Shown here piece after piece: positions 5,304-62,141 of a stretch of DNA of 64,000 nt. Under the pieces are notes generated by a model. That model did not search any database, was not told where the DNA came from, and worked only from the letters and a program-made list of their open reading frames with translations. Origin of the DNA: a virus; IMG/VR virus record IMGVR_UViG_3300025886_000011, positions 10,357 through 74,356 of that record; one strand, written 5' to 3'. The stretch's first letter is position 1; every line of letters begins with the position of its first letter. The translations under genes were made by a program, and so were the position numbers.

Positions 5304-6569
5304 ATGAAAGAGAATGTAAAAAAGATTGGCTTTTTTAAATTAGGTAAAGCCATAAAGTTTAATGAAAACAGCTGGAGCGCAATCGGTGGTGATTGTGAAC
5401 CTAAGCAATTAATTTGTTCAATTGCAAACCGAAATCCTAATATTGAATATTGGCTATTAAGCCCAAATGACTTAGGTAAGTTTAGAGCAAAACAAAAACC
5501 TAAAGTAAATTCTTTATTTGGCCCCCCTCCTACTGATGAACCTGTAGTTCCTAATAATATTAAGGAATTTCATTCAACTATGAAAGAGAGAAAATCTACT
5601 GATGAAACTGTTGAAATTATTCAAGGTTTAGATTTAGATTTTATTTTCTTTTATACTGGTCCAACAAGTACCGTTAATATTCCAGAGTATATTAATAAGA
5701 AGGATGGTACTGGTCAAGTTAAATCATTAGACTTCTTTAAGTATTATGCAGCTCCTATTATTAAATCAATGAATGAGTTGGAAAAGAAAGTTCCTATTGT
5801 TGGTTTACTTGTTGATAACCGTTATATACTTGCATGTAAAGATTGGGGAATTAATAATAGACCAACTTATTACTTAGCACAAAATACATTTACTAAAGAA
5901 GAACAATATTTCTGCAATCCACCCTTGCGAGATGTCAAGACTATCACATCAACATATGAATATTCAGGTATTGAAACAGTATTCTTATTAGATAAGAAAA
6001 GATATGATACTGATGAATTATTCAAAATGAAGAAAACTGATTCGTTTATGATGTTACAGAATCAAGGTAAAGGTTCTGGTGGAATGGACCGATGGGATCC
6101 GGTAAAAGAATATATTGTTGATCAAGAAATTGAGACTGATATCTATGGAAAATGGGATGATGAAATCAAGGAAAAATATCCTAAATGGTTTAAAGGAGAA
6201 ACTAGAATTGAAACAATGACTGATGAATTACTTGGTACTAAATATACATTCTGTGTACCTATTAAAGAAGGTATGGTAACATCTAAGTATGCTGAAATGC
6301 TACACTATGGTATTATACCATTCTTACATCCGTCTTACGACACTGACTTTAATGTCTTCCCTGAAGGTCATTTTATTCGATGTAAATCAGCAGAAGATTT
6401 AAAAAAGAAAATTGAATTCTTAAATGCAAACCCAGAGCATTACAAGAAATTATTTTATAACCTGCAAGAAAAGTATCTTAAGGATTCTTATTATACTGGA
6501 GAACATGTAGATAACAAGATCTGGGAATCTTATGAACACGTAACAAAAACTGAAACAATAGATGTATAA
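5304..6569 (+). CDS. GT-B glycosyltransferase resembling T4 beta-glucosyltransferase (putative DNA glycosyltransferase)
   Basis: C-terminal DIYGK..VTSKYAEMLHYGIIPFLHPSYDTDFNV..FIRCKSAEDLKKKIEFL aligns by eye with T4 BGT EFFG..ITLRVWETM..IDEEFDTKHRI..YVNNRAELIDRVNEL; LVDNRY resembles FTDIRL. Confidence 0.7.
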   Translation: MKENVKKIGFFKLGKAIKFNENSWSAIGGDCEPKQLICSIANRNPNIEYWLLSPNDLGKFRAKQKPKVNSLFGPPPTDEPVVPNNIKEFHSTMKERKSTDETVEIIQGLDLDFIFFYTGPTSTVNIPEYINKKDGTGQVKSLDFFKYYAAPIIKSMNELEKKVPIVGLLVDNRYILACKDWGINNRPTYYLAQNTFTKEEQYFCNPPLRDVKTITSTYEYSGIETVFLLDKKRYDTDELFKMKKTDSFMMLQNQGKGSGGMDRWDPVKEYIVDQEIETDIYGKWDDEIKEKYPKWFKGETRIETMTDELLGTKYTFCVPIKEGMVTSKYAEMLHYGIIPFLHPSYDTDFNVFPEGHFIRCKSAEDLKKKIEFLNANPEHYKKLFYNLQEKYLKDSYYTGEHVDNKIWESYEHVTKTETIDV

Positions 6570-7587: not shown

Positions 7588-8850
7588 ATGGAAAAAGAAT
7601 TAAAATGGGGTACTATAATTCCACTAATTGGTGGTAGTGCTATAGGATGTAAAAAATCTGCAGGTAATGAACCGGCATTTCATTTAAGCTATGATGCATT
7701 TGCTGCTAACGAAAGTCATATCGAAAAATATTGGCCAGAAGTACCTATGTACAGATTGGATCATGAAGATTTAGATATACCTAAACAAACCTTTAATGAA
7801 GTTGATTATGTAAATTCAGTATGCCCGTGTGCAGGTTTATCACAATTAAATTCTGCAAAAGGTAGTGCTGCATCTCGAGGATCTGGTGCAACGCAGAACC
7901 AATGGATGTATAATTCATCAGAGTATATTTTAGAAAATGTAAAACCTAAAGTTCTTTGGGGTGAAAATGCACCTGGTCTTTTTACTAAGATGGGAGAAGG
8001 TGTAGTTGATAGGTTAAAGGCTATCGGTGAAAAATACGGATATAGTTTTTCGTTAATTAAAACTAATACTGAATTGCATGGAATTCCACAAAGGCGAATG
8101 AGAACATTTTATTTCTTTTGGAATACTCCAACCGTTCCTATGTTAAGTTGGAAGTTTAGAGAAAAGAAAAATCTTATTGATTATCTTAATGAAATACCGG
8201 AAGATGCTACTCATCAAGATATGTTTATGGTTGAAGGAAAGGTTACGGATCATTTTAAACCTTATGAATATGTTTTAGAAAAAGAAGGTTTAACTCATTC
8301 TGAATTTGCTGCTAAATTTAAGAAAGGTACTATTGCTCAATATTTAGAAAAAAATGAATTAATACCTGACTGCATTAAGTGGTTAGAGAAGCATTATCCA
8401 AAAAGAGGATTTTCAAATAAAAAATCTACTAAGACTTTTATTGATATGTTAGAACATCAGCAATATAAGACAAGTCAAGGATTAGGTTATTGGGATGCAT
8501 CACCACACTTCTTTCATGATTCTTTTTCTGCTCTTATTGGTAGAAATATGTTTAACGGAGTTCATCCTATAGAAAATAGATATCTCAATGTAAGAGAGAT
8601 GCTGCACTTAATGGGCCTACCTTTAGACTTTGGTATCGAAAATGCAAAGCAAGTAAATCATATCGCTCAAAATGTACCAGTAACTACTGCAATGGATATG
8701 GCTGATGAAGTAAAGAAATTTTGTAATGGAGAAGCTAAGATGACTAACTATACTTTTCTGAAGCAAGATAATACAAACCATAAAATTATTGACTCTACTG
8801 AAATTGGAGCTGAACCTAAAAAGAAGTATAAAGTAACAAATATAATTTAA
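7588..8850 (+). CDS. C5-cytosine methyltransferase-like protein with atypical SAM-binding motifs
   Basis: Motif IV CPCAGLS, VI ENAPGL, VIII GIPQRRMRTF, IX RYLNVREMLHLMGLP; motif I reads IPLIGG and motif X reads IAQNVP. Confidence 0.8.
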   Translation: MEKELKWGTIIPLIGGSAIGCKKSAGNEPAFHLSYDAFAANESHIEKYWPEVPMYRLDHEDLDIPKQTFNEVDYVNSVCPCAGLSQLNSAKGSAASRGSGATQNQWMYNSSEYILENVKPKVLWGENAPGLFTKMGEGVVDRLKAIGEKYGYSFSLIKTNTELHGIPQRRMRTFYFFWNTPTVPMLSWKFREKKNLIDYLNEIPEDATHQDMFMVEGKVTDHFKPYEYVLEKEGLTHSEFAAKFKKGTIAQYLEKNELIPDCIKWLEKHYPKRGFSNKKSTKTFIDMLEHQQYKTSQGLGYWDASPHFFHDSFSALIGRNMFNGVHPIENRYLNVREMLHLMGLPLDFGIENAKQVNHIAQNVPVTTAMDMADEVKKFCNGEAKMTNYTFLKQDNTNHKIIDSTEIGAEPKKKYKVTNII

Positions 8851-11668: not shown

Positions 11669-12787
11669 ATGACAGAGGAATTACAAAAAATTAACGAGGA
11701 AGCTTCTAAATTTTACAATTATGAACAAGCTGTAAAATTAATGCTTAACTCTATTTATGGCGCATTTGGTAATCCTTACTTTTATTTCTTCAACGTTGAT
11801 ATTGCAGAAACTATTACACTCCAAGGTAAAGATGCAATTCTTTACACCGAAAACTTAGTTAACAAATATTTTAAAGAATATTGGCATAAAGATACTGCTG
11901 CCCACCAAGCTATGGGAATAACCGTAACTGGTAAAATTGAAAAACCTGTTGGTATTTATATTGACACGGATTCGGTATATGTAAAGTTTGAGGAACTAAT
12001 TAAAAAATCTGAAGGGTGGGAAGGTGATGAAAAAGAATTCATTTTAAAGTTATATGAAGTAAGGCTTAAAGCTTATATAGAAAAAATTCTACAAGTTTAT
12101 GCTGATAATAATAATGCAGAAAACTTTTTATCATTTGAATTAGAAAGTATTGCTAAGAATGCAATATGGTTGGCTAAGAAAAAATACATGCAGAATATTG
12201 TTTGGAAGGATCCGGATATTCATTATGACGATCTTTCTAAAATTAGTTCTAAAGGATTTGAAATTATACAGTCATCCACTCCAATTTTTGCTAGAGAAAA
12301 ACTAAAAGAATTGCTAACATATATATTTTCGGTTAGTGAATTAGATATGGGAGCCTTTGCTGCATTGCTTAAAGATATAAAAAGACAATTTAGATTAGCA
12401 AATGTTGATCAAATTTGTTTTTCACGAAAGGTTAATAATTATCAAAAGTACATTGTAAATGATTATGAACAATTTGAGATTGCATCAAAATGCCCAATCG
12501 GCGTAAGATCTGCAGGTTATCATAATTACCTTTTAAATAATTCTGGCCTTAAAGGAAAATATCAACCTTTAGGAAATGGCGAAAAATGTAAAATGTATTT
12601 TTCTACTGATAACTCGTGTGACGTGTTTGCATTTGCGCCTGGTGATTATCCTTATGAATTTGCCCCTAAGATTGATTATGATAGGCAATTTGAAAAAACT
12701 ATATTAGATCCTATTAATCGTGTAGTAACTGCGATGGGTTTTAAATCCTTTAATAGAAATCTGATTTATACAACAAGCTTATTTTAA
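11669..12787 (+). CDS. gp43B: Family B DNA polymerase, C-terminal subunit of a split gp43
   Basis: Motif B KLMLNSIYG, motif C YIDTDSVY and KKKY; exonuclease and motif A absent. Confidence 0.9.
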   Translation: MTEELQKINEEASKFYNYEQAVKLMLNSIYGAFGNPYFYFFNVDIAETITLQGKDAILYTENLVNKYFKEYWHKDTAAHQAMGITVTGKIEKPVGIYIDTDSVYVKFEELIKKSEGWEGDEKEFILKLYEVRLKAYIEKILQVYADNNNAENFLSFELESIAKNAIWLAKKKYMQNIVWKDPDIHYDDLSKISSKGFEIIQSSTPIFAREKLKELLTYIFSVSELDMGAFAALLKDIKRQFRLANVDQICFSRKVNNYQKYIVNDYEQFEIASKCPIGVRSAGYHNYLLNNSGLKGKYQPLGNGEKCKMYFSTDNSCDVFAFAPGDYPYEFAPKIDYDRQFEKTILDPINRVVTAMGFKSFNRNLIYTTSLF

Positions 12788-57535: not shown

Positions 57536-57649
57536 ATGATGGAATTTTTAGAGTTCACATTTAGTTCTATTTGGCATTTTCTTGGTATCCTAATTTTAAT
57601 AGGAGTAGTCGGTAGCATAATTCCTAATATTAACATTAATAAAAAATGA
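57536..57649 (+). CDS. 37-aa single-pass membrane peptide
   Basis: MMEFLEFTFSSIWHFLGILILIGVVGSIIPNININKK*; stop overlaps the next ATG. Confidence 0.55.
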   Translation: MMEFLEFTFSSIWHFLGILILIGVVGSIIPNININKK

Positions 57650-58125
57650 ATAAAATAATTTTAGTAGGTAAAGGTGCTGCTGGTAAAGATCATATGAGAA
57701 AAATTCTTAGTGGTAGAGGTTTTCAGTATGGTATTTCATACACGACTCGACCTCCTAGGGATGGTGAAATTGATGGTAAGGATTATTTCTTTTTAACAGA
57801 AGAAGATTTTAAAAGAAAAATCAATCAAGGGTATTGGTATGAATGGATAGAATTTAATGGATGGTATTATGGTACAAGCCAAAGACAGTTTACTATAAGC
57901 TGTAACCTTTTTATTATGACACCTAAAGGTATAAGTCATATTGACCCTGTAGATAGAAAAGAATGTACAATAATCTATCTTAATGTAGATGAAAAGATTA
58001 GGCGTAATCGATTAATTAAAAGAGAAATGCCTGGTGATTCAATAGACAGGAGAATGATTGCAGATGCAAAAGACTTTAAAGATTTTACAGATTTTGATAT
58101 TGAAATAAACAATTCTACTTTTTAA
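57646..58125 (+). CDS. Guanylate kinase-like NMP kinase
   Basis: GKGAAGKD, YTTRPPR.GE.DG.DY.F, FNGWYYGT. Confidence 0.88.
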   Translation: MNKIILVGKGAAGKDHMRKILSGRGFQYGISYTTRPPRDGEIDGKDYFFLTEEDFKRKINQGYWYEWIEFNGWYYGTSQRQFTISCNLFIMTPKGISHIDPVDRKECTIIYLNVDEKIRRNRLIKREMPGDSIDRRMIADAKDFKDFTDFDIEINNSTF

Positions 58126-58133
58126 CTATATAA
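58106..58133 (+). promoter_or_regulatory. Middle-type promoter (dNMP kinase and dCMP hydroxymethylase)
   Basis: TAAAC-N17-ATATAA(AAATAA). Confidence 0.7.
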
Positions 58134-58143
58134 AAATAAACAC

Positions 58144-58743
58144 ATGAGCAAATTTATTATCATTGAAGGTACAGATAATACAGGTAAAGATACCCAGCAA
58201 AATCTAATTATTGAAAAATTACATAACCTAGTCTTTCATAAGCTTCACTATTCTTCATTACCTTTTAAAGATGATGTAGAAAAACATGTTAATTATTCTA
58301 CTAAAATGTATAATGATATGTTTAAAATGATGGTAAATAATAAAGATGCTGATATTAATATGATTTTTAATAGATCTCATTTAGGTGAATCTGTTTACTC
58401 TCCTCTTTATAGAAATTATTCAGGTGATTATATTTTTAATATTGAAAAAGAGTATGTTAATCAACTAAGAAAAGAATTATATTTAATTACCTTAACTAAT
58501 GATCCTCATACAATTTTAAAACGAGATGATGGCAAATCATTCTATGGTAATGAAGAAGAAGTTAAAGCCGAAGTTGATGGATTTAACAGAGCTCATAGAT
58601 TAAGTAAGATTAAAAATAAACTAAATATTAATATAGGTACAATGAGCGCAGATGAAGTATCTCATATCATAATTGATTTTCTAAAACATGAAAATTCTAT
58701 TAGTGGTGTTGCTGAACAACTAAATATGTTTACTGATGTGTAA
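58144..58743 (+). CDS. Thymidylate-kinase-like dNMP kinase (probable hm-dCMP kinase)
   Basis: IIEGTDNTGKDT, FNRSHLGE.VY; co-transcribed with the dCMP hydroxymethylase. Confidence 0.8.
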   Translation: MSKFIIIEGTDNTGKDTQQNLIIEKLHNLVFHKLHYSSLPFKDDVEKHVNYSTKMYNDMFKMMVNNKDADINMIFNRSHLGESVYSPLYRNYSGDYIFNIEKEYVNQLRKELYLITLTNDPHTILKRDDGKSFYGNEEEVKAEVDGFNRAHRLSKIKNKLNINIGTMSADEVSHIIIDFLKHENSISGVAEQLNMFTDV

Positions 58744-58921
58744 AGCAGAAGATTTATTATACGAGGCTCACCATGAAGGTATTAGAGATGAGGTTCTTGC
58801 TGAGAGCCGTCGATTATATCAGGATAAAAAGAAGTATGAACACATGGAGTTTGGTGATAGAATAGAAATAGCACTAAGAAATGTTAGAGAGAATAAATTA
58901 CAAAGTAAATTAAAAAAATGA
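58736..58921 (+). CDS. Hypothetical protein
   Basis: 61 aa ORF coupled to both neighbours. Confidence 0.55.
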   Translation: MCKAEDLLYEAHHEGIRDEVLAESRRLYQDKKKYEHMEFGDRIEIALRNVRENKLQSKLKK

Positions 58922-59829
58922 GAGTATTTAAAGGAGAGACTTTTGCAGAAGCATACAACTATGCTCTAAGTAGTATTATACATAATCCTACATACATATC
59001 ATCCCCTAGAGGTATGAAGATATTTGAAATGACTGATGCAGCGATCGTTGTAGAAGATCCTACATATTGTCTTTATGAAAATGATCGTAGGAGTAGTCAA
59101 TTTAAATATATTGCAGCAGAATTGGTTTGGTATTTTACTGGCCGTAATGATGCTGACTTTATTACACCGTATGCAAAGTTCTGGGATCAAATTAAAAATA
59201 AAGACGGTACTGTTAACTCTGCTTATGGTAATCTTATCTTTACCGAAGAATTAGAAGATGGTCGTAATCAATATCGATGGGCATTAGATTCCTTAATTCA
59301 AGATAAAGATTCAAGGCAAGCAATTATACATTTTAATAAGCCCTCTCATCAATGGAATGGAAATAGAGATTTTGTTTGTACTCTTAATGGCATATTTCAA
59401 ATAAGAGATAATAAATTAAACTTTACTATTGATATGAGATCTAACGATCTTATATTAGGTACTCCTACTGATGTTGCATTCTTTTGTCTTTTACAAATTC
59501 AAATGTTAGAGCATCTTCGTAATCATTACCCTGAATTAGAATTAGGTACATATACTCATATTGCACATTCGCTTCATTTATATGAAAGGCACTTCGATCT
59601 TGCAAGCGAGATGTTAATGAAATCGTTTAATCCTCAATCATTTCCAAATATGACAGAGTTTTTAATTGATCCTAACGGTAAATCATTAGATGGTTTAAAA
59701 CAATTAGAAGATGAAATGATTCAGAGTAATGATGTTGTATTTAAAGGAAAATCTAATTTTGAACCACAACCTCATGATGATCTTTTACATCAGTGGATAT
59801 CCGACGCAATTTTTAATAAAGCCCTTTAA
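58918..59829 (+). CDS. gp42: dCMP hydroxymethylase (T4 gp42-like thymidylate synthase superfamily member)
   Basis: ELVWY, NSAYG, DSRQA, DFVCT (catalytic Cys) and MRSNDLILGTPTD, with Asp at the position that is Asn in dUMP-specific TS (T4 gp42: DFMCT, MRSNDVVFGFRND). Confidence 0.85.
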   Translation: MRVFKGETFAEAYNYALSSIIHNPTYISSPRGMKIFEMTDAAIVVEDPTYCLYENDRRSSQFKYIAAELVWYFTGRNDADFITPYAKFWDQIKNKDGTVNSAYGNLIFTEELEDGRNQYRWALDSLIQDKDSRQAIIHFNKPSHQWNGNRDFVCTLNGIFQIRDNKLNFTIDMRSNDLILGTPTDVAFFCLLQIQMLEHLRNHYPELELGTYTHIAHSLHLYERHFDLASEMLMKSFNPQSFPNMTEFLIDPNGKSLDGLKQLEDEMIQSNDVVFKGKSNFEPQPHDDLLHQWISDAIFNKAL

Positions 59830-59832
59830 AAG

Positions 59833-60705
59833 ATGGTAATAGATACCTTTTTATATTATAATGAAATAGAATTACTTGAATTAAGACTCAAGGTTCTCTA
59901 TGACTACGTTGATCGCTTTGTAATAGTAGAAGGTGATCATACACACAAGGGGGATCCTATCCCCTTTAGGGCTAAAAATGATCTTAAGAAACTAGGATAT
60001 GAAAATGATAGAAAGATACATGTCATCGAAGTAAACCTTAAATCTTTTGATGAAGAACCGGATCCTTGGAAAAGATCGGATCGTGCTAGGAATGCACAAG
60101 CTAGCATATATTCTGACGATGATGATATAGTTATTATTGCAGATATAGATGAATTATGGCATCCTCATTATTTACAACAGCATGTAAGATATTTAAACGA
60201 AAACCCAACTCATGTTTTAATTAATAGATGTTGGGATTTACAAGGCCAAGTTGATTTAGGACTATATGCCAAACATAATAATGAATGTAATTCTAATGCA
60301 CCTTTATTTGCCAAAGGTTCTTTTTGGAAAAAACATTCACCAGCTTCTGCTAGGTGGATATGCGGTTGGGGTGGTAATAAAAAAGATTTTCCTTTTGAAG
60401 TTAATTGGTTTACTGATGTTAAGAAGGGGTGGCATCTTTCTTATATGGGAAATGTTGAAAGAAAGTTATCTAAAATTAATACATCATGTCATTGGGATGA
60501 TGAATGGGTTCCAGGTATTTCTTTCGAATCAGATTATACAAAGAACCGCTTTAAGAATTTTAATGGTAAACCTTTAACAGATGGTAGAGATTTATTAGGT
60601 AGAGAAAATTTTTATATTAAGCCATTTGATTACACTGATCTTTTTGATACGATTGGTGACGGCTCAGATCATTTAAAAGATTGGTTATTAGGTAGAAATA
60701 TATAA
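59833..60705 (+). CDS. GT17-like glycosyltransferase
   Basis: F..YNE.ELLELRL..L..VD.FVIVE..T..G, ADIDEL, GWHLSY. Confidence 0.8.
   Translation: MVIDTFLYYNEIELLELRLKVLYDYVDRFVIVEGDHTHKGDPIPFRAKNDLKKLGYENDRKIHVIEVNLKSFDEEPDPWKRSDRARNAQASIYSDDDDIVIIADIDELWHPHYLQQHVRYLNENPTHVLINRCWDLQGQVDLGLYAKHNNECNSNAPLFAKGSFWKKHSPASARWICGWGGNKKDFPFEVNWFTDVKKGWHLSYMGNVERKLSKINTSCHWDDEWVPGISFESDYTKNRFKNFNGKPLTDGRDLLGRENFYIKPFDYTDLFDTIGDGSDHLKDWLLGRNI
60697..60704 (+). promoter_or_regulatory. Late-type promoter (ATP-grasp protein)
   Basis: AATATATA. Confidence 0.55.
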
Positions 60706-60722: not shown

Positions 60723-62141
60723 TTGAAGTATCTAAAATTATTTGAACAATTCCTAAATGAAAAGAAACCTAAAGGAGCACCAGACTTCCATCATTCTGAT
60801 GCACCTGATGCTGAAGGTAGATTTAAAGATCTTTCTATAAAAGATTTAGCCGCATGGTTAATTAAAACTAGAAAGAAAGATGTTAAAAAAATTAGTGGTT
60901 CTTTAACTCAGCAAATAGTTTTTAACAGAAAGAGTGACCCTAAGTATGCTGAAAAGATGGAGAAAACCAGAAAAGAAGTATATAAACAATTAGGCAGAGA
61001 AGATTTATTAAAAGAATATGTTGTAGAGGTAAAGAAACCTATCGATATTACTGTTGGTGGTAAAGAATATAAGCTTACTAAAAAAGGAAGTAAGATTACT
61101 CTAACTAATACTAAGTTATCCGCTGATAAGTTTATATTTAGAAATGAAAAAGAATTTAAAGAATGGGCTGATGATCAGGTAGAACCTATTGGTGGAACTC
61201 AATCATCTCATTTTGGTATCAGTGAATCAAAGGATAGTGAAAATGGTCTAGGTAAAGTTTATTTAGCATTAAGAGAAGATAGTGGACATAGATGGTGGAC
61301 TTATAAAGGTTTTGCTGGGGATAAGTTTTTTACACAAGTTCATGAAAACAATATGAATGACATTGATATTAATCCAGACTATCCAGTTTTAACCTATCAT
61401 TCAGATACAGTTAATAAACTAATAAAGGCTGGTAAGATTAAAAAAGAAAATGTTTATAATCACCCAGACCACATATCAAAATCTGGATCTAAGGAAGAAT
61501 TCCATAAACTGGTTGGAGAAGATGAAAATATACCTAAGACAGTATATTCTAAGAATGATGCATTAGAGCAATTAGAATTTCCTATTATTGCAAAACCTGC
61601 AGAAGGTCATAGTGGAGAAGGTATTCAAATAATAGAAAAGCCAGATTTAATGGAAGAGGTGGACGAAAAGATTTTTGATACCTTTTCAGAATACATTGAC
61701 AAGGCAGAAGAACATAGGTTTATAAACTTTAAAGGAAAGCCGATTTTTTGGATGGAGAGAACTCCTATAAATGAAAAGGCTAAGTCCGGTAAAGGTAGTG
61801 CTAAAGAAGCTATGGAGTTTGGATATGCTAAAAGAAATATTAAAGATTTACCTAAAGATTATAAAAAAGTATTAGAGAAGTTTTGTAAGATTTATGAAGA
61901 TTTGCCTTATATGTGTTTTGATGTTATGAAAGGTAAAAATGGAAAGGTCTATATTATTGAATCCAATGCTCAGCCTGGAGTACCTTTTGATTCTACTATT
62001 GAAGCTTATAAACATATCTATGAAGATTTTTATAAGAAATCTCTTGACGAAGAAAGTTTAACTAAATTAAATGAATATGCTAAAACTATGATTGAAAAGA
62101 CTCTTAAAAAAGATGGGGGCAAAAGATTTTCAATTAAATAG
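60723..62141 (+). CDS. Late protein with putative head-targeting leader and C-terminal RimK-like ATP-grasp domain (TTG start)
   Basis: MKYLKLFEQFLNE leader; IPKT..PII.KP..GHSGEGI, EYID..EHR, FDV, IESNAQPG. Confidence 0.78.
   Translation: MKYLKLFEQFLNEKKPKGAPDFHHSDAPDAEGRFKDLSIKDLAAWLIKTRKKDVKKISGSLTQQIVFNRKSDPKYAEKMEKTRKEVYKQLGREDLLKEYVVEVKKPIDITVGGKEYKLTKKGSKITLTNTKLSADKFIFRNEKEFKEWADDQVEPIGGTQSSHFGISESKDSENGLGKVYLALREDSGHRWWTYKGFAGDKFFTQVHENNMNDIDINPDYPVLTYHSDTVNKLIKAGKIKKENVYNHPDHISKSGSKEEFHKLVGEDENIPKTVYSKNDALEQLEFPIIAKPAEGHSGEGIQIIEKPDLMEEVDEKIFDTFSEYIDKAEEHRFINFKGKPIFWMERTPINEKAKSGKGSAKEAMEFGYAKRNIKDLPKDYKKVLEKFCKIYEDLPYMCFDVMKGKNGKVYIIESNAQPGVPFDSTIEAYKHIYEDFYKKSLDEESLTKLNEYAKTMIEKTLKKDGGKRFSIK

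What the first reader, a model, noticed from the sequence alone, without database searches (positions are those of the whole stretch)
57646..59829. The thymidylate synthase homolog is a dCMP-modifying enzyme with dedicated kinases
Seen: MRSNDLILGTPTD (59434-59472) has Asp where dUMP-specific ThyA has Asn177 (RSCDVFLGLPFN), and ELVWY, NSAYG and DFVCT match T4 gp42. Established: this Asp confers dCMP specificity. A TMK-like kinase shares its promoter and a GMK-like kinase lies just upstream. Inference: C is replaced at the nucleotide level by hmC, or by 5mC or 5-hydroxy-C as in other gp42 relatives, which supplies the acceptor for the 3.3-9.9 kb operon about 50 kb away. An automatic annotation would probably call this gene thyA.
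Basis: partly seen in the sequence, partly recalled or inferred. Interest (0 to 1): 0.75.

Follow-up and report, generated by a model that had tools for sequence, protein, structure and literature searches.

The report
Marine phage dCMP hydroxymethylase with kinase partner
A gene in a widespread marine phage that databases label "thymidylate synthase" is almost certainly a T4-type enzyme that makes 5-hydroxymethyl-dCMP so the phage can replace cytosine in its DNA; it is a well-supported new member of a known pathway, not a new kind of system.

Summary
The 303-aa protein at 58918-59829 belongs to the thymidylate-synthase (TS) family, and Asp185 sits where E. coli ThyA has Asn177. Of the 12 residues around C5 of the substrate, 11 are identical to T4 gp42 and the twelfth is conservative (R versus K). 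The key positions are L143→D, H147→T, D169 kept and N177→D. This rules out the signatures of canonical ThyA, the flavin 5-hydroxy-dCMP synthases (D169N) and the Xp12 dCMP methylase. Ser175 and Arg133 mark it as specific for the deoxy substrate.

- A T4 gp56-type dCTPase lies in the same viral record, about 5 kb upstream of the window.
- Close relatives carry a separate canonical ThyA or ThyX, plus a dCMP deaminase.

The TMK-like kinase is genuinely coupled to the TS homolog. The two are adjacent in many unrelated phages and fused into one protein in metagenomes. It sits next to the TS homolog in Enterococcus phage VPE25, whose DNA was shown experimentally to carry glycosylated 5hmC.

The GMK-like gene keeps its guanine-binding residues, so it looks like an ordinary (d)GMP kinase rather than an hmC-dedicated one.

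In the cultured Pseudoalteromonas phage XG4, the kinase, TS, sugar-activation genes, GT, C5-methylase-like gene and dCTPase form one cluster. This supports the proposed link to the window's 3.3-8.9 kb operon.

Verdict: new member of a known kind. The scan's notes show no earlier finding of this on other DNA.

The parts
58918..59829 (+). TS-family dCMP hydroxymethylase (predicted 5hm-dCMP synthase). Key residues are Cys154, Asp151 (≡L143), Thr155 (≡H147), Asp177 (≡D169), Asp185 (≡N177), Ser175 and Arg133.
   Evidence: PF00303. Best PDB sequence hits are MilA and T4 gp42 at about 1e-22, against about 1e-11 for ThyA. Active-site signature. Key residues invariant in the family. AF2 model has pLDDT 90.5, with MilA and T4 dCH as best structural matches.
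58144..58743 (+). TMK-like P-loop nucleotide kinase, the candidate 5hm-dCMP kinase.
   Evidence: phrog_761 at 1.8e-16. TMK/YorR fold. 25% identical to RB69p045. Adjacent to TS homologs in LR756500.1, XG4 and VPE25. Fused to a TS homolog in P0174.
58736..58921 (+). Conserved 61-aa ORF of unknown function, translationally coupled between the TMK-like and TS genes.
   Evidence: Overlaps both neighbours. Conserved at 39-95% identity in most related loci. No family match.
57646..58125 (+). GMK-like kinase, probably a (d)GMP kinase supplying dGDP rather than an hmC-specific enzyme.
   Evidence: PF00625 at 2.9e-20. GMP-binding motif conserved against mouse GMK. In G003 the 62%-identical homolog sits next to ThyX.
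59833..60705 (+). Accessory GT17-like glycosyltransferase inserted directly after the TS gene. Its role is unknown; it is a possible extra DNA or glycan GT.
   Evidence: PF04724 at 3.2e-15. Present only in the window and its nearest relative L002. No phage homologs.
3322..5302 (+). Sugar-activation module: HAD phosphatase, APH-like kinase and nucleotidyltransferase. Inferred to make the NDP-sugar donor.
   Evidence: Pfam. The same functions occur next to TS homologs in XG4 (a weak phosphatase-like match plus a fused NTP-transferase/APH-kinase) and in Enterococcus phage 9183.
5304..6569 (+). GT1-like glycosyltransferase, the candidate hmC-DNA glycosyltransferase.
   Evidence: Weak PF13524 match. 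85% conserved in G002. Its homologs in cultured phages are found only beside TS homologs: XG4, Enterococcus 9183 and Agathobaculum AB434P2.
7588..8850 (+). C5-cytosine methyltransferase-fold protein associated with the pathway. Its role is unresolved.
   Evidence: PF00145 at 1.2e-19. PC, ENA, QRRxR and QNVP motifs present. 83% conserved in G002. A 34%-identical homolog (E 5e-62) lies inside the XG4 TS/GT/dCTPase cluster.

Best explanation
The gene at 58918-59829 encodes a folate-dependent dCMP hydroxymethylase of the T4 gp42 type. Cys154 attacks C6 of dCMP. Asp185 reads the cytosine N3/N4 edge. Methylene-THF donates one carbon, and the exocyclic methylene intermediate is hydrated to give 5-hydroxymethyl-dCMP, because Asp151 replaces the water-excluding Leu143 of ThyA. 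The upstream, translationally coupled TMK-like kinase most likely converts 5hm-dCMP to the diphosphate, the job T4 gp1 does; no gp1 homolog is detectable here. The GMK-like kinase most likely supplies dGDP. A gp56-type dCTPase, encoded 5 kb upstream of the window in the same record, removes dCTP, so the phage polymerase incorporates 5hm-dCTP in place of dCTP. A separate ThyA or ThyX and a dCMP deaminase, seen in relatives, keep dTTP synthesis going. The 5hmC in DNA is then probably glycosylated by the GT1-like enzyme, using an NDP-sugar made by the 3.3-5.3 kb module. What is shown here: homology, active-site residues, gene linkage, paralogy and co-occurrence. What is inferred: every catalytic activity, complete replacement of C, the kinase's substrate, and glycosylation.
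For: (1) Signature: of the 12 residues within 6 A of C5 listed in PMC13326640, the query matches T4 gp42 at 11, and position 142 is R versus K. N177D marks a dCMP substrate. L143D marks a non-methyl product. Keeping D169 excludes the hydroxylase signature (rules). S167 and R126' equivalents mark deoxy preference. (2) These residues are invariant across 22 family members down to 56% identity. Among the 139 nearest 50%-cluster representatives, 138 have D177, all 139 have D143 and 138 have D169. (3) PDB sequence and fold searches rank the CMP/dCMP hydroxymethylases MilA and T4 dCH above every ThyA. (4) It is kept alongside a true thymidylate synthase: syntenic relative G002 also has a canonical ThyA (299 bits), G003 has ThyX, and all three long relatives have a dCMP deaminase. 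(5) A T4 gp56 homolog (36% identity, E 2.5e-22) is in the window's own record. Its cultured-phage homologs are 1401 records, by organism name essentially all T4-like phages of enterobacteria, Acinetobacter and Aeromonas. It lies on the same contig as the TS homolog in at least 3 further records. (6) TMK-like coupling: the order GMK-TMK-(61-aa ORF)-TS is conserved in about 30 viral loci down to 60% TS identity. TMK-like and TS genes are adjacent in LR756500.1, XG4 and VPE25. Natural fusions exist: P0174 and, more weakly, P0267. (7) Experimental anchor: VPE25 and VFW DNA resists bisulfite, EcoRI and MspI but is cut by PvuRts1I, which indicates glycosylated 5hmC (PMC4999554). VPE25's TS homolog has the identical 13-residue signature.
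Against: No enzymology exists for this protein or any close relative; the nearest characterised enzymes are about 27-37% identical. The deep phylogeny among gp42, RB69 gp48, SP10 and this clade is unresolved, so the product call rests on signature residues, and the L143 rule is only a correlation. A conserved C5-cytosine methyltransferase-fold gene with intact catalytic motifs is hard to reconcile with every cytosine already carrying a C5 substituent, so replacement may be incomplete or that enzyme may do something else. G001 (83% complete) has the TS homolog but no detectable TMK-like, GMK-like, gp56-like or C5-MTase-like gene, so the kinase is not universally required. In RB69 the gp1-type kinase, not the TMK-like one, was shown to phosphorylate the modified dCMP. 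The window's own record is only 29% complete, so ThyA/ThyX and the deaminase are inferred from relatives.
Confidence: 0.75

Rival explanations
1. It is a dCMP methyltransferase making 5-methyl-dCMP, as in Xanthomonas phage Xp12, so the DNA carries 5mC rather than 5hmC.
For: N177D alone turns a ThyA into a dCMP methylase (literature cited). Xp12's TS homolog also has Asp at position 177.
Against: Xp12's enzyme groups with canonical ThyA (100/99 support, long branch), far from the query. It also differs at positions 143 (N), 147 (P), 165 (L) and 168 (S), where the query matches gp42. The query has Asp at 143, as do all the hydroxymethylases compared: gp42 and SP10 in the alignment, MilA per the paper. 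5mC offers no hydroxyl for the linked GT genes.
Confidence: 0.07
2. It is a flavin-dependent 5-hydroxy-dCMP synthase like RB69 gp48, DLP3 gp80 or HY126 AfhB, giving O-glycosylated 5-hydroxycytosine.
For: Similar cluster logic (TMK-like kinase, TS homolog, sugar phosphatase/kinase/nucleotidyltransferase, GTs) to RB69 and DLP3. The fold also matches AfhB, TM 0.77-0.79 normalised to the target.
Against: The diagnostic D169N substitution is absent: D177 is invariant in the family. W80 and G173, which are changed in RB69 gp48, are kept. All nine D169N enzymes tested made 5hoC, whereas T4 gp42, with D169, makes 5hmC.
Confidence: 0.04
3. It is an ordinary, divergent thymidylate synthase making dTMP, and the neighbouring kinases are routine nucleotide-salvage genes.
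For: Pfam, PHROG and source annotations all say thymidylate synthase. TMK and GMK next to a TS would make sense for dTTP and dGTP supply.
Against: Asn177, His147, Leu143 and Gln165 are all replaced. It scores 64 bits against NCBIfam ThyA equivalog cut-offs of 108-576. A syntenic relative carries a real ThyA as well. A gp56-type dCTPase is present.
Confidence: 0.03
4. The enzyme makes 5hm-dCMP but replacement is only partial, or the 5hmC is processed by a route other than simple glycosylation. The C5-methyltransferase-fold protein or the downstream ATP-grasp ligase could act on C or 5hmC in DNA.
For: The C5-MTase-like gene keeps its catalytic motifs, is conserved, and is clustered with the TS, GT and dCTPase genes in XG4. 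An ATP-grasp gene follows the TS in nearly all related loci that extend that far.
Against: Presence of a gp56-type dCTPase argues for thorough dCTP removal. G001 keeps the TS homolog without the C5-MTase-like gene. Nothing here shows the ATP-grasp touches DNA.
Confidence: 0.11

Closest known systems
Bacteriophage T4 gp42 dCMP hydroxymethylase, with gp56 dCTPase, gp1 dNMP kinase, td and cd
   Same: TS fold. Identical first-shell residues (W80, Y94, D143, C146, T147, M165, S167, N168, D169, G173, D177). A gp56 homolog at 36% identity in the same record. A separate ThyA/ThyX and a dCMP deaminase in relatives. A glycosyltransferase gene directly beside the TS homolog, as T4's b-gt lies beside gene 42.
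   Different: Only about 29% identical to gp42, and 57 residues longer, with a MilA-like C-terminal extension. No gp1-type kinase is detectable; a TMK-like and a GMK-like kinase stand in its place. The GTs are unrelated to T4 a-gt and b-gt (no b-gt hit). A C5-MTase-fold gene is associated.
Streptomyces MilA CMP 5-hydroxymethylase (PDB 5jnh, 5b6d)
   Same: Best sequence and structure match, covering up to 302 alignment columns including the C-terminal region. Asp at both the 143 and 177 equivalents.
   Different: MilA has Ala176 and Lys133', which give ribo (CMP) preference. The query has Ser175 and Arg133, the deoxy-type pair. MilA serves antibiotic biosynthesis, not DNA modification.
Enterococcus phages VPE25, VFW and 9183 (glycosylated 5hmC DNA shown for VPE25 and VFW)
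   Same: TS homolog 37% identical with the identical 13-residue signature. A TMK-like P-loop kinase sits directly upstream of the TS. A GT lies just downstream, after a dUTPase gene. Phage 9183 carries a homolog of the window's GT1-like gene plus phosphatase and NDP-sugar pyrophosphorylase genes in the same operon.
   Different: These are 86-kb siphoviruses of a Gram-positive host. They use a trimeric dUTPase-family gene rather than gp56. VPE25 uses a T4-like b-gt. They have no GMK-like or C5-MTase-like gene in the cluster.
RB69 gp48 / DLP3 gp80 5-hydroxy-dCMP synthases and their arabinosylation clusters (PMC13326640)
   Same: TS homolog with N177D and an acidic residue at 143. A homologous TMK-like kinase next to it (RB69p045, 25% identity). 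The same cluster logic of phosphatase, anomeric kinase, nucleotidyltransferase and GTs.
   Different: Those enzymes carry D169N (plus W80A and G173V in RB69), use flavin and O2, and make 5hoC. The query keeps D169, W80 and G173. The sugar genes show no detectable sequence homology.
Pseudoalteromonas phage vB_Psh_XG4 (PP712099.1, cultured, unannotated record)
   Same: Homologs of the TMK-like, TS-like, GT1-like, C5-MTase-like and gp56-like genes at 29-38% identity, plus NTP-transferase/APH-kinase and weak phosphatase-like functions. It is also marine.
   Different: There the genes form one contiguous cluster of about 8 kb across the ends of the record. In the window's genome they lie at three sites 50-60 kb apart. 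Nothing is published on XG4 DNA in the searched library.

Membership tests
gp42-type dCMP hydroxymethylase (5hm-dCMP synthase) | Thymidylate-synthase fold with the catalytic Cys (E. coli C146 / T4 C148) | tested here: met
   PF00303 at 2.9e-23. Cys154 aligned to T4 C148. AF2 model matches T4 dCH with TM 0.74-0.76 normalised to the target.
gp42-type dCMP hydroxymethylase (5hm-dCMP synthase) | Asp at the ThyA Asn177 position (cytosine specificity) | tested here: met
   Asp185, invariant in the family alignment. Present in 138 of 139 nearest cluster representatives.
gp42-type dCMP hydroxymethylase (5hm-dCMP synthase) | Acidic residue at the ThyA Leu143 position (water access, so a non-methyl product) | tested here: met
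   Asp151. Present in all 139 representatives. Rule taken from PMC13326640.
gp42-type dCMP hydroxymethylase (5hm-dCMP synthase) | Asp169 retained (folate-dependent, not the hydroxylase branch) | tested here: met
   Asp177, invariant. Present in 138 of 139 representatives.
gp42-type dCMP hydroxymethylase (5hm-dCMP synthase) | Ser167 and Arg126' equivalents (2'-deoxy preference, unlike MilA's Ala and Lys) | tested here: met
   Ser175 and Arg133, both invariant. Rule from PMC5175136.
gp42-type dCMP hydroxymethylase (5hm-dCMP synthase) | Genome also encodes a dCTPase and a separate true thymidylate synthase | tested here: met
   gp56 homolog in the window's own record. ThyA in G002 and ThyX in G003. 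The own record is a 29% fragment with no second TS.
gp42-type dCMP hydroxymethylase (5hm-dCMP synthase) | Catalyses dCMP + CH2-THF + H2O to 5hm-dCMP + THF | not testable with these tools
   Needs an enzyme assay or LC-MS.
Canonical thymidylate synthase ThyA | Asn177, His147, Leu143 and Gln165, and a score above the curated equivalog cut-offs | tested here: not met
   D, T, D and M at those positions. Best NCBIfam ThyA score is 64 bits against a cut-off of 327.
5-hydroxy-dCMP synthase (RB69 gp48 / AfhB type) | D169N substitution | tested here: not met
   Asp is kept at that position.
Xp12-type dCMP methyltransferase | Membership of the ThyA-derived clade that holds Xp12's D177 enzyme | tested here: not met
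   Xp12 groups with ThyA at 100/99 support, and the query lies on the other side of a 2.9-unit branch. The signature differs at positions 143, 147, 165 and 168.
dTMP kinase (TMK), for ORF 58144-58743 | Scores above the curated family cut-offs and keeps the DR[YH] motif | tested here: not met
   PF02223 scores 24.7 against a cut-off of 27. TIGR00041 scores 26.5 against 83. The motif reads NRSH. The fold is TMK/YorR-like.
T4 gp1 dNMP kinase, for either kinase | Detectable homology to T4 gp1 (PDB 1DEK) | tested here: not met
   No 1DEK hit at E<=1 or among the hits at E<=0.01. No blastp or phmmer hit to T4 gp1. No gp1 homolog in G000-G003.
Guanylate kinase, for ORF 57646-58125 | Guanylate_kin domain with the GMP-binding residues (S..TTR..R..Y, E, Y-G-T) | tested here: met
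   PF00625 scores 73 bits against a cut-off of 25. Motif residues are conserved in the alignment to mouse GMK; their roles are taken from established GMK structures (own knowledge). The score is below the NCBIfam equivalog cut-off, 86 against 160.

The most novel reading that the evidence does not exclude
The TS homolog may be the entry point of an uncharacterised, widely distributed cytosine-hypermodification pathway. It would comprise the gp56-type dCTPase, the dCMP hydroxymethylase, a TMK-like 5hm-dCMP kinase replacing gp1, a phosphatase/anomeric-kinase/nucleotidyltransferase sugar module, a GT1-like DNA glycosyltransferase, and a C5-methyltransferase-fold enzyme acting on 5hmC-DNA in a non-methylating role. 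The product would be a glycosyl-5hmC not yet described. The pathway would be shared by abundant marine phages and the cultured Pseudoalteromonas phage XG4.
Probability: 0.3. Interest if true: 0.7.

Novelty: new member of a known kind. Interest (0 to 1): 0.4.

Why it matters
This phage lineage is common in the sea: 19 runs from about 14 studies hold most of the stretch searched, and the TS family has more than 1150 environmental homologs. If its DNA carries (glycosyl-)5hmC in place of C, several things follow. It should resist many restriction and CRISPR systems. It would behave differently in bisulfite or enzymatic methylation assays. Its TS gene is being mis-annotated as thyA across metagenome databases.

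The analysis also points to a practical rule. A TMK-like kinase adjacent or fused to a D177/D143 TS homolog marks a modified-dCMP pathway in phages that lack a gp1-type kinase.

It also names a cultured phage, XG4, in which the whole predicted pathway could be tested.

Tried and rejected
- The sigma-70 promoter and terminator scan of 56.8-62.3 kb found fewer sites than chance (27 against 32), so it says nothing about a shared promoter.
- PDB sequence searches with the C5-MTase-like and gp56-like proteins returned nothing.
- MazG and trimeric dUTPase family searches found nothing in the window's own record or in G002. G002's lack of gp56 is uninformative, because its contig begins inside the sugar cluster.
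- The ML tree did not resolve whether the query clade is sister to gp42. The gp42 and RB69 branches are long and their placement is unreliable. The product call therefore rests on signature residues, not on phylogeny.
- The sequencing-run search showed a marine distribution, but the runs are kept only as contigs, which cannot show base modification. I did not lay reads.
- I looked for sequence homology between the window's sugar genes and the RB69 arabinosylation genes and found none. The resemblance is in function and gene order only.
- Literature searches found nothing on XG4 and nothing on glycosylated 5hmC in Enterococcus phages. A later search found experimental data only for VPE25 and VFW.
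- I considered a ribo-specific CMP hydroxymethylase like MilA and rejected it on Ser175 and Arg133.
- I did not run a complex prediction, because I make no claim that these proteins bind each other.
Full report
**What the window is.** The window is 64 kb of a 76,973-bp IMG/VR viral record that CheckV estimates at 29% complete. GC content is about 30% and nearly all genes are on the + strand. It encodes T4-like topoisomerase II, a split family-B polymerase, RecA/UvsX-like, DnaB-like and SbcCD-like proteins, a gp15-like tail protein and sigma factors. Its nearest database relatives are uncultured huge phages. The 53.6-63.4 kb stretch is held almost intact by 19 marine, sponge or viral metagenome runs from about 14 studies.

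**Checking the observation.**
- ORF 58918-59829 (303 aa) matches Pfam Thymidylat_synt at 2.9e-23.
- Against PDB sequences it ranks the CMP hydroxymethylase MilA (1e-22) and T4 dCMP hydroxymethylase (4e-22) eleven orders of magnitude above any ThyA.
- The quoted peptide is residues 173-185, nt 59434-59472. Its last residue, Asp185, aligns with T4 Asp179, MilA Asp186 and E. coli Asn177.
- Cys154 in DFVCT aligns with the catalytic Cys148 of T4 and Cys146 of E. coli.
- The two kinase-like ORFs are real: GMK-like (PF00625, 2.9e-20) and TMK-like (phrog_761, 1.8e-16; Pfam below cut-off).
- The TMK-like gene, a conserved 61-aa ORF and the TS gene overlap by 8 and 4 nt. GMK precedes TMK by 18 nt, and a GT17-like gene follows the TS after 3 nt.

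**Which reaction.** Three papers give residue-level rules.
- PMC13326640 lists the 12 residues within 6 A of C5 of the substrate. It states that N177D gives a dCMP substrate, that L143D/E correlates with a non-methyl product, and that D169N identifies the flavin-dependent 5-hydroxy-dCMP synthases. All nine D169N enzymes tested made 5hoC.
- PMC8670742 found positions 177 and 147 to be the residues most associated with cytosine-modified viral contigs.
- PMC5175136 shows that Ser167 and Arg126' give 2'-deoxy preference, whereas MilA's Ala and Lys give ribo preference.

I aligned the query with reference sequences taken from public records: E. coli ThyA, T4 gp42, RB69 gp48, the Xp12 TS and the SP-10 dUMP hydroxymethylase. 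The query reads W80, Y94, R142, D143, C146, T147, M165, S167, N168, D169, G173, D177. That is identical to gp42 except R versus K at position 142. The other enzymes differ as follows:

| Enzyme | Differences from the query |
|---|---|
| RB69 gp48 | A80, E143, Q168, N169, V173 |
| Xp12 | N143, P147, L165, S168 |
| SP-10 | Asn177 kept |
| ThyA | L143, H147, Q165, N177 |

The key residues are invariant in 22 family members down to 56% identity. Among the 139 nearest 50%-cluster representatives from a 1.8-billion-protein library, 138 have D177, all 139 have D143, 138 have D169 and 135 have T147. The exact gp42 signature is the commonest state, at 76 of 139.

An ML tree places Xp12's enzyme with canonical ThyA (100/99 support), on a long branch away from the query. 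Relations among gp42, RB69, SP-10 and the query clade are unresolved. The AF2 model (pLDDT 90.5) best matches MilA over up to 302 columns, including the C-terminal extension that gp42 lacks, and then T4 dCH. NCBIfam's ThyA equivalog models score at most 64 bits, far below their curated cut-offs of 108-576.

I conclude that this is a deoxy-specific, cytosine-specific, folate-type hydroxymethylase.

- A T4 gp56 (dCTPase/dUTPase) homolog lies in the window's own record at G000:C1:5236-5730, about 5 kb upstream of the window. It is 36% identical (E 2.5e-22) and its acidic metal-binding motifs are aligned.
- Its homologs among cultured phages are 1401 records, by organism name essentially all T4-like phages of enterobacteria, Acinetobacter and Aeromonas.
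- It is conserved at 70-99% identity in this lineage and lies on the same contigs as the TS homolog in at least three other records.
- The own record has no second TS and no ThyX, but it is a fragment.
- G002 (181 kb) has the same gene order and a TS homolog 62% identical. It also has a canonical ThyA at 299 bits. G003 has ThyX. G001-G003 all have a dCMP deaminase.

The set gp56, gp42-like, ThyA/ThyX and deaminase reproduces the T4 paradigm.

**The kinases.** The order GMK, TMK, (61-aa ORF), TS, flanked by topoisomerase II on one side and by ATP-grasp, phosphoesterase and sigma genes on the other, is conserved in about 30 viral loci down to 60% TS identity.

The TMK-like protein is under strong purifying selection. 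Its P-loop is intact, and a conserved NRSH motif replaces the TMK DR[YH] motif. It folds like TMKs and the SPbeta YorR kinase. It is homologous to RB69p045, the untested "nucleotide kinase" next to RB69's TS homolog. It sits next to TS homologs in several other phages:
- directly adjacent in LR756500.1, and about 1.2 kb away in Ralstonia phage RsoM2USA;
- adjacent in Pseudoalteromonas phage XG4;
- adjacent, with weak similarity (E 0.005), in Enterococcus phage VPE25.

Two cluster representatives are natural fusions. P0174 has a TMK-like half that aligns over the full length of the window's kinase (29% identity, E 3e-22), joined to a D143/D169/D177 TS half. P0267 has the reverse order and weaker similarity. 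No T4 gp1-type kinase is detectable in this record or in three relatives, and neither local kinase resembles gp1. The TMK-like protein is therefore the best candidate for the 5hm-dCMP kinase. This is an inference.

The GMK-like protein keeps the GMP-binding motif residues. In G003 its 62%-identical homolog sits next to ThyX, not next to the TS homolog. G001 has the TS homolog with neither kinase. I read the GMK-like protein as a general (d)GMP kinase. Together the two kinases may split the work of T4 gp1, which phosphorylates dGMP, dTMP and hm-dCMP according to its annotation.

**Link to the 3.3-9.9 kb operon.** That region encodes a HAD phosphatase, an APH-like kinase, a nucleotidyltransferase, a GT1-like protein, an epimerase and a C5-cytosine methyltransferase-fold protein. 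The last three are 83-85% conserved in G002.

Homologs of the GT1-like protein in cultured phages occur in only eight records. In each lineage examined (Enterococcus phage 9183, Agathobaculum AB434P2 and Pseudoalteromonas XG4) they lie beside or within about 2.5 kb of a TS homolog with the same D143/D169/D177 signature.

In XG4, joining the record's end to its start gives one same-strand cluster: TMK-like, TS-like, a weak phosphatase-like ORF, a fused NTP-transferase/APH-kinase, GT1-like, a second GT-like gene, C5-MTase-like (34% identity, E 5e-62) and gp56-like. So genes that lie at three sites in the window's genome form one unit elsewhere.

Experimentally, the DNA of VPE25 and VFW resists bisulfite, EcoRI and MspI but is cut by PvuRts1I (PMC4999554). 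VPE25's TS homolog has the identical signature.

**Caveats.**
- No activity was measured for any protein here.
- The C5-methyltransferase-fold gene keeps its PC, ENA, QRRxR and QNVP motifs. That sits awkwardly with complete replacement of C. Either replacement is incomplete or this enzyme has another role.
- G001 lacks a detectable homolog of it.
- The GT17-like gene right after the TS is an accessory insertion seen only in the window and its nearest relative. It has no phage homologs.

**Verdict.** The product is narrowed to 5hm-dCMP. "Dedicated kinases" holds for the TMK-like gene only. This is a new, abundant marine member of a known pathway type. Its variant kinase solution and the associated C5-MTase-fold gene deserve experimental follow-up in phage XG4.

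Noticed in passing
G000:C1:6327-7742 (upstream of the window) and window 11669-12787: The family-B DNA polymerase is split. The exonuclease/N-terminal half and the polymerase C-terminal half are separate ORFs about 14 kb apart, with both RNR subunits and the whole sugar/GT cluster between them.
   Followed up: partly
G000:C1:4356-5192 and 5734-6336 (upstream of the window): An Fpg/Nei-family DNA glycosylase and a SAM-dependent (O-methyltransferase-like) methyltransferase flank the gp56-like dCTPase gene.
   Followed up: no
window 7588-8850; L119:5363-6580 (phage XG4): A C5-cytosine methyltransferase-fold protein with intact catalytic motifs is conserved in the lineage. In Pseudoalteromonas phage XG4 it sits inside the TS/GT/dCTPase cluster, which is odd for a phage predicted to have no unsubstituted C5.
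   Followed up: partly
window 60723-62141: An ATP-grasp (RimK/YheCD-like) gene follows the TS gene in nearly all related loci that extend that far. Its similarity to the window's copy varies widely (38-96% identity). Whether it relates to DNA modification is unknown.
   Followed up: no
P0128 (599-aa TS-like representative): This TS-like protein is interrupted after about residue 170 by an intein with an HNH endonuclease domain, just before the conserved MRS(N/Q)D active-site motif.
   Followed up: no
P0220 (460-aa TS-like representative): This divergent TS-like domain (S167A, D169E) is fused to a C-terminal class-I SAM methyltransferase domain.
   Followed up: no
L116:2949-3611 (Agathobaculum phage AB434P2): This gene is annotated 'deoxyuridylate hydroxymethyltransferase' but carries Asp at the N177 position with D143 and D169, so it is more likely a dCMP hydroxymethylase. 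A GT1-like gene abuts it.
   Followed up: partly
L118:4597-5550 (phage XG4): A PAPS-reductase-domain protein is encoded immediately upstream of the TMK-like/TS cluster in XG4.
   Followed up: no
L044 and L045 (G003:C1:28575-30018; G001:C1:65232-66455): In the more distant relatives G001 and G003, the dCMP deaminase gene lies within 200-600 bp downstream of the TS-like gene, where this lineage has the ATP-grasp gene.
   Followed up: no
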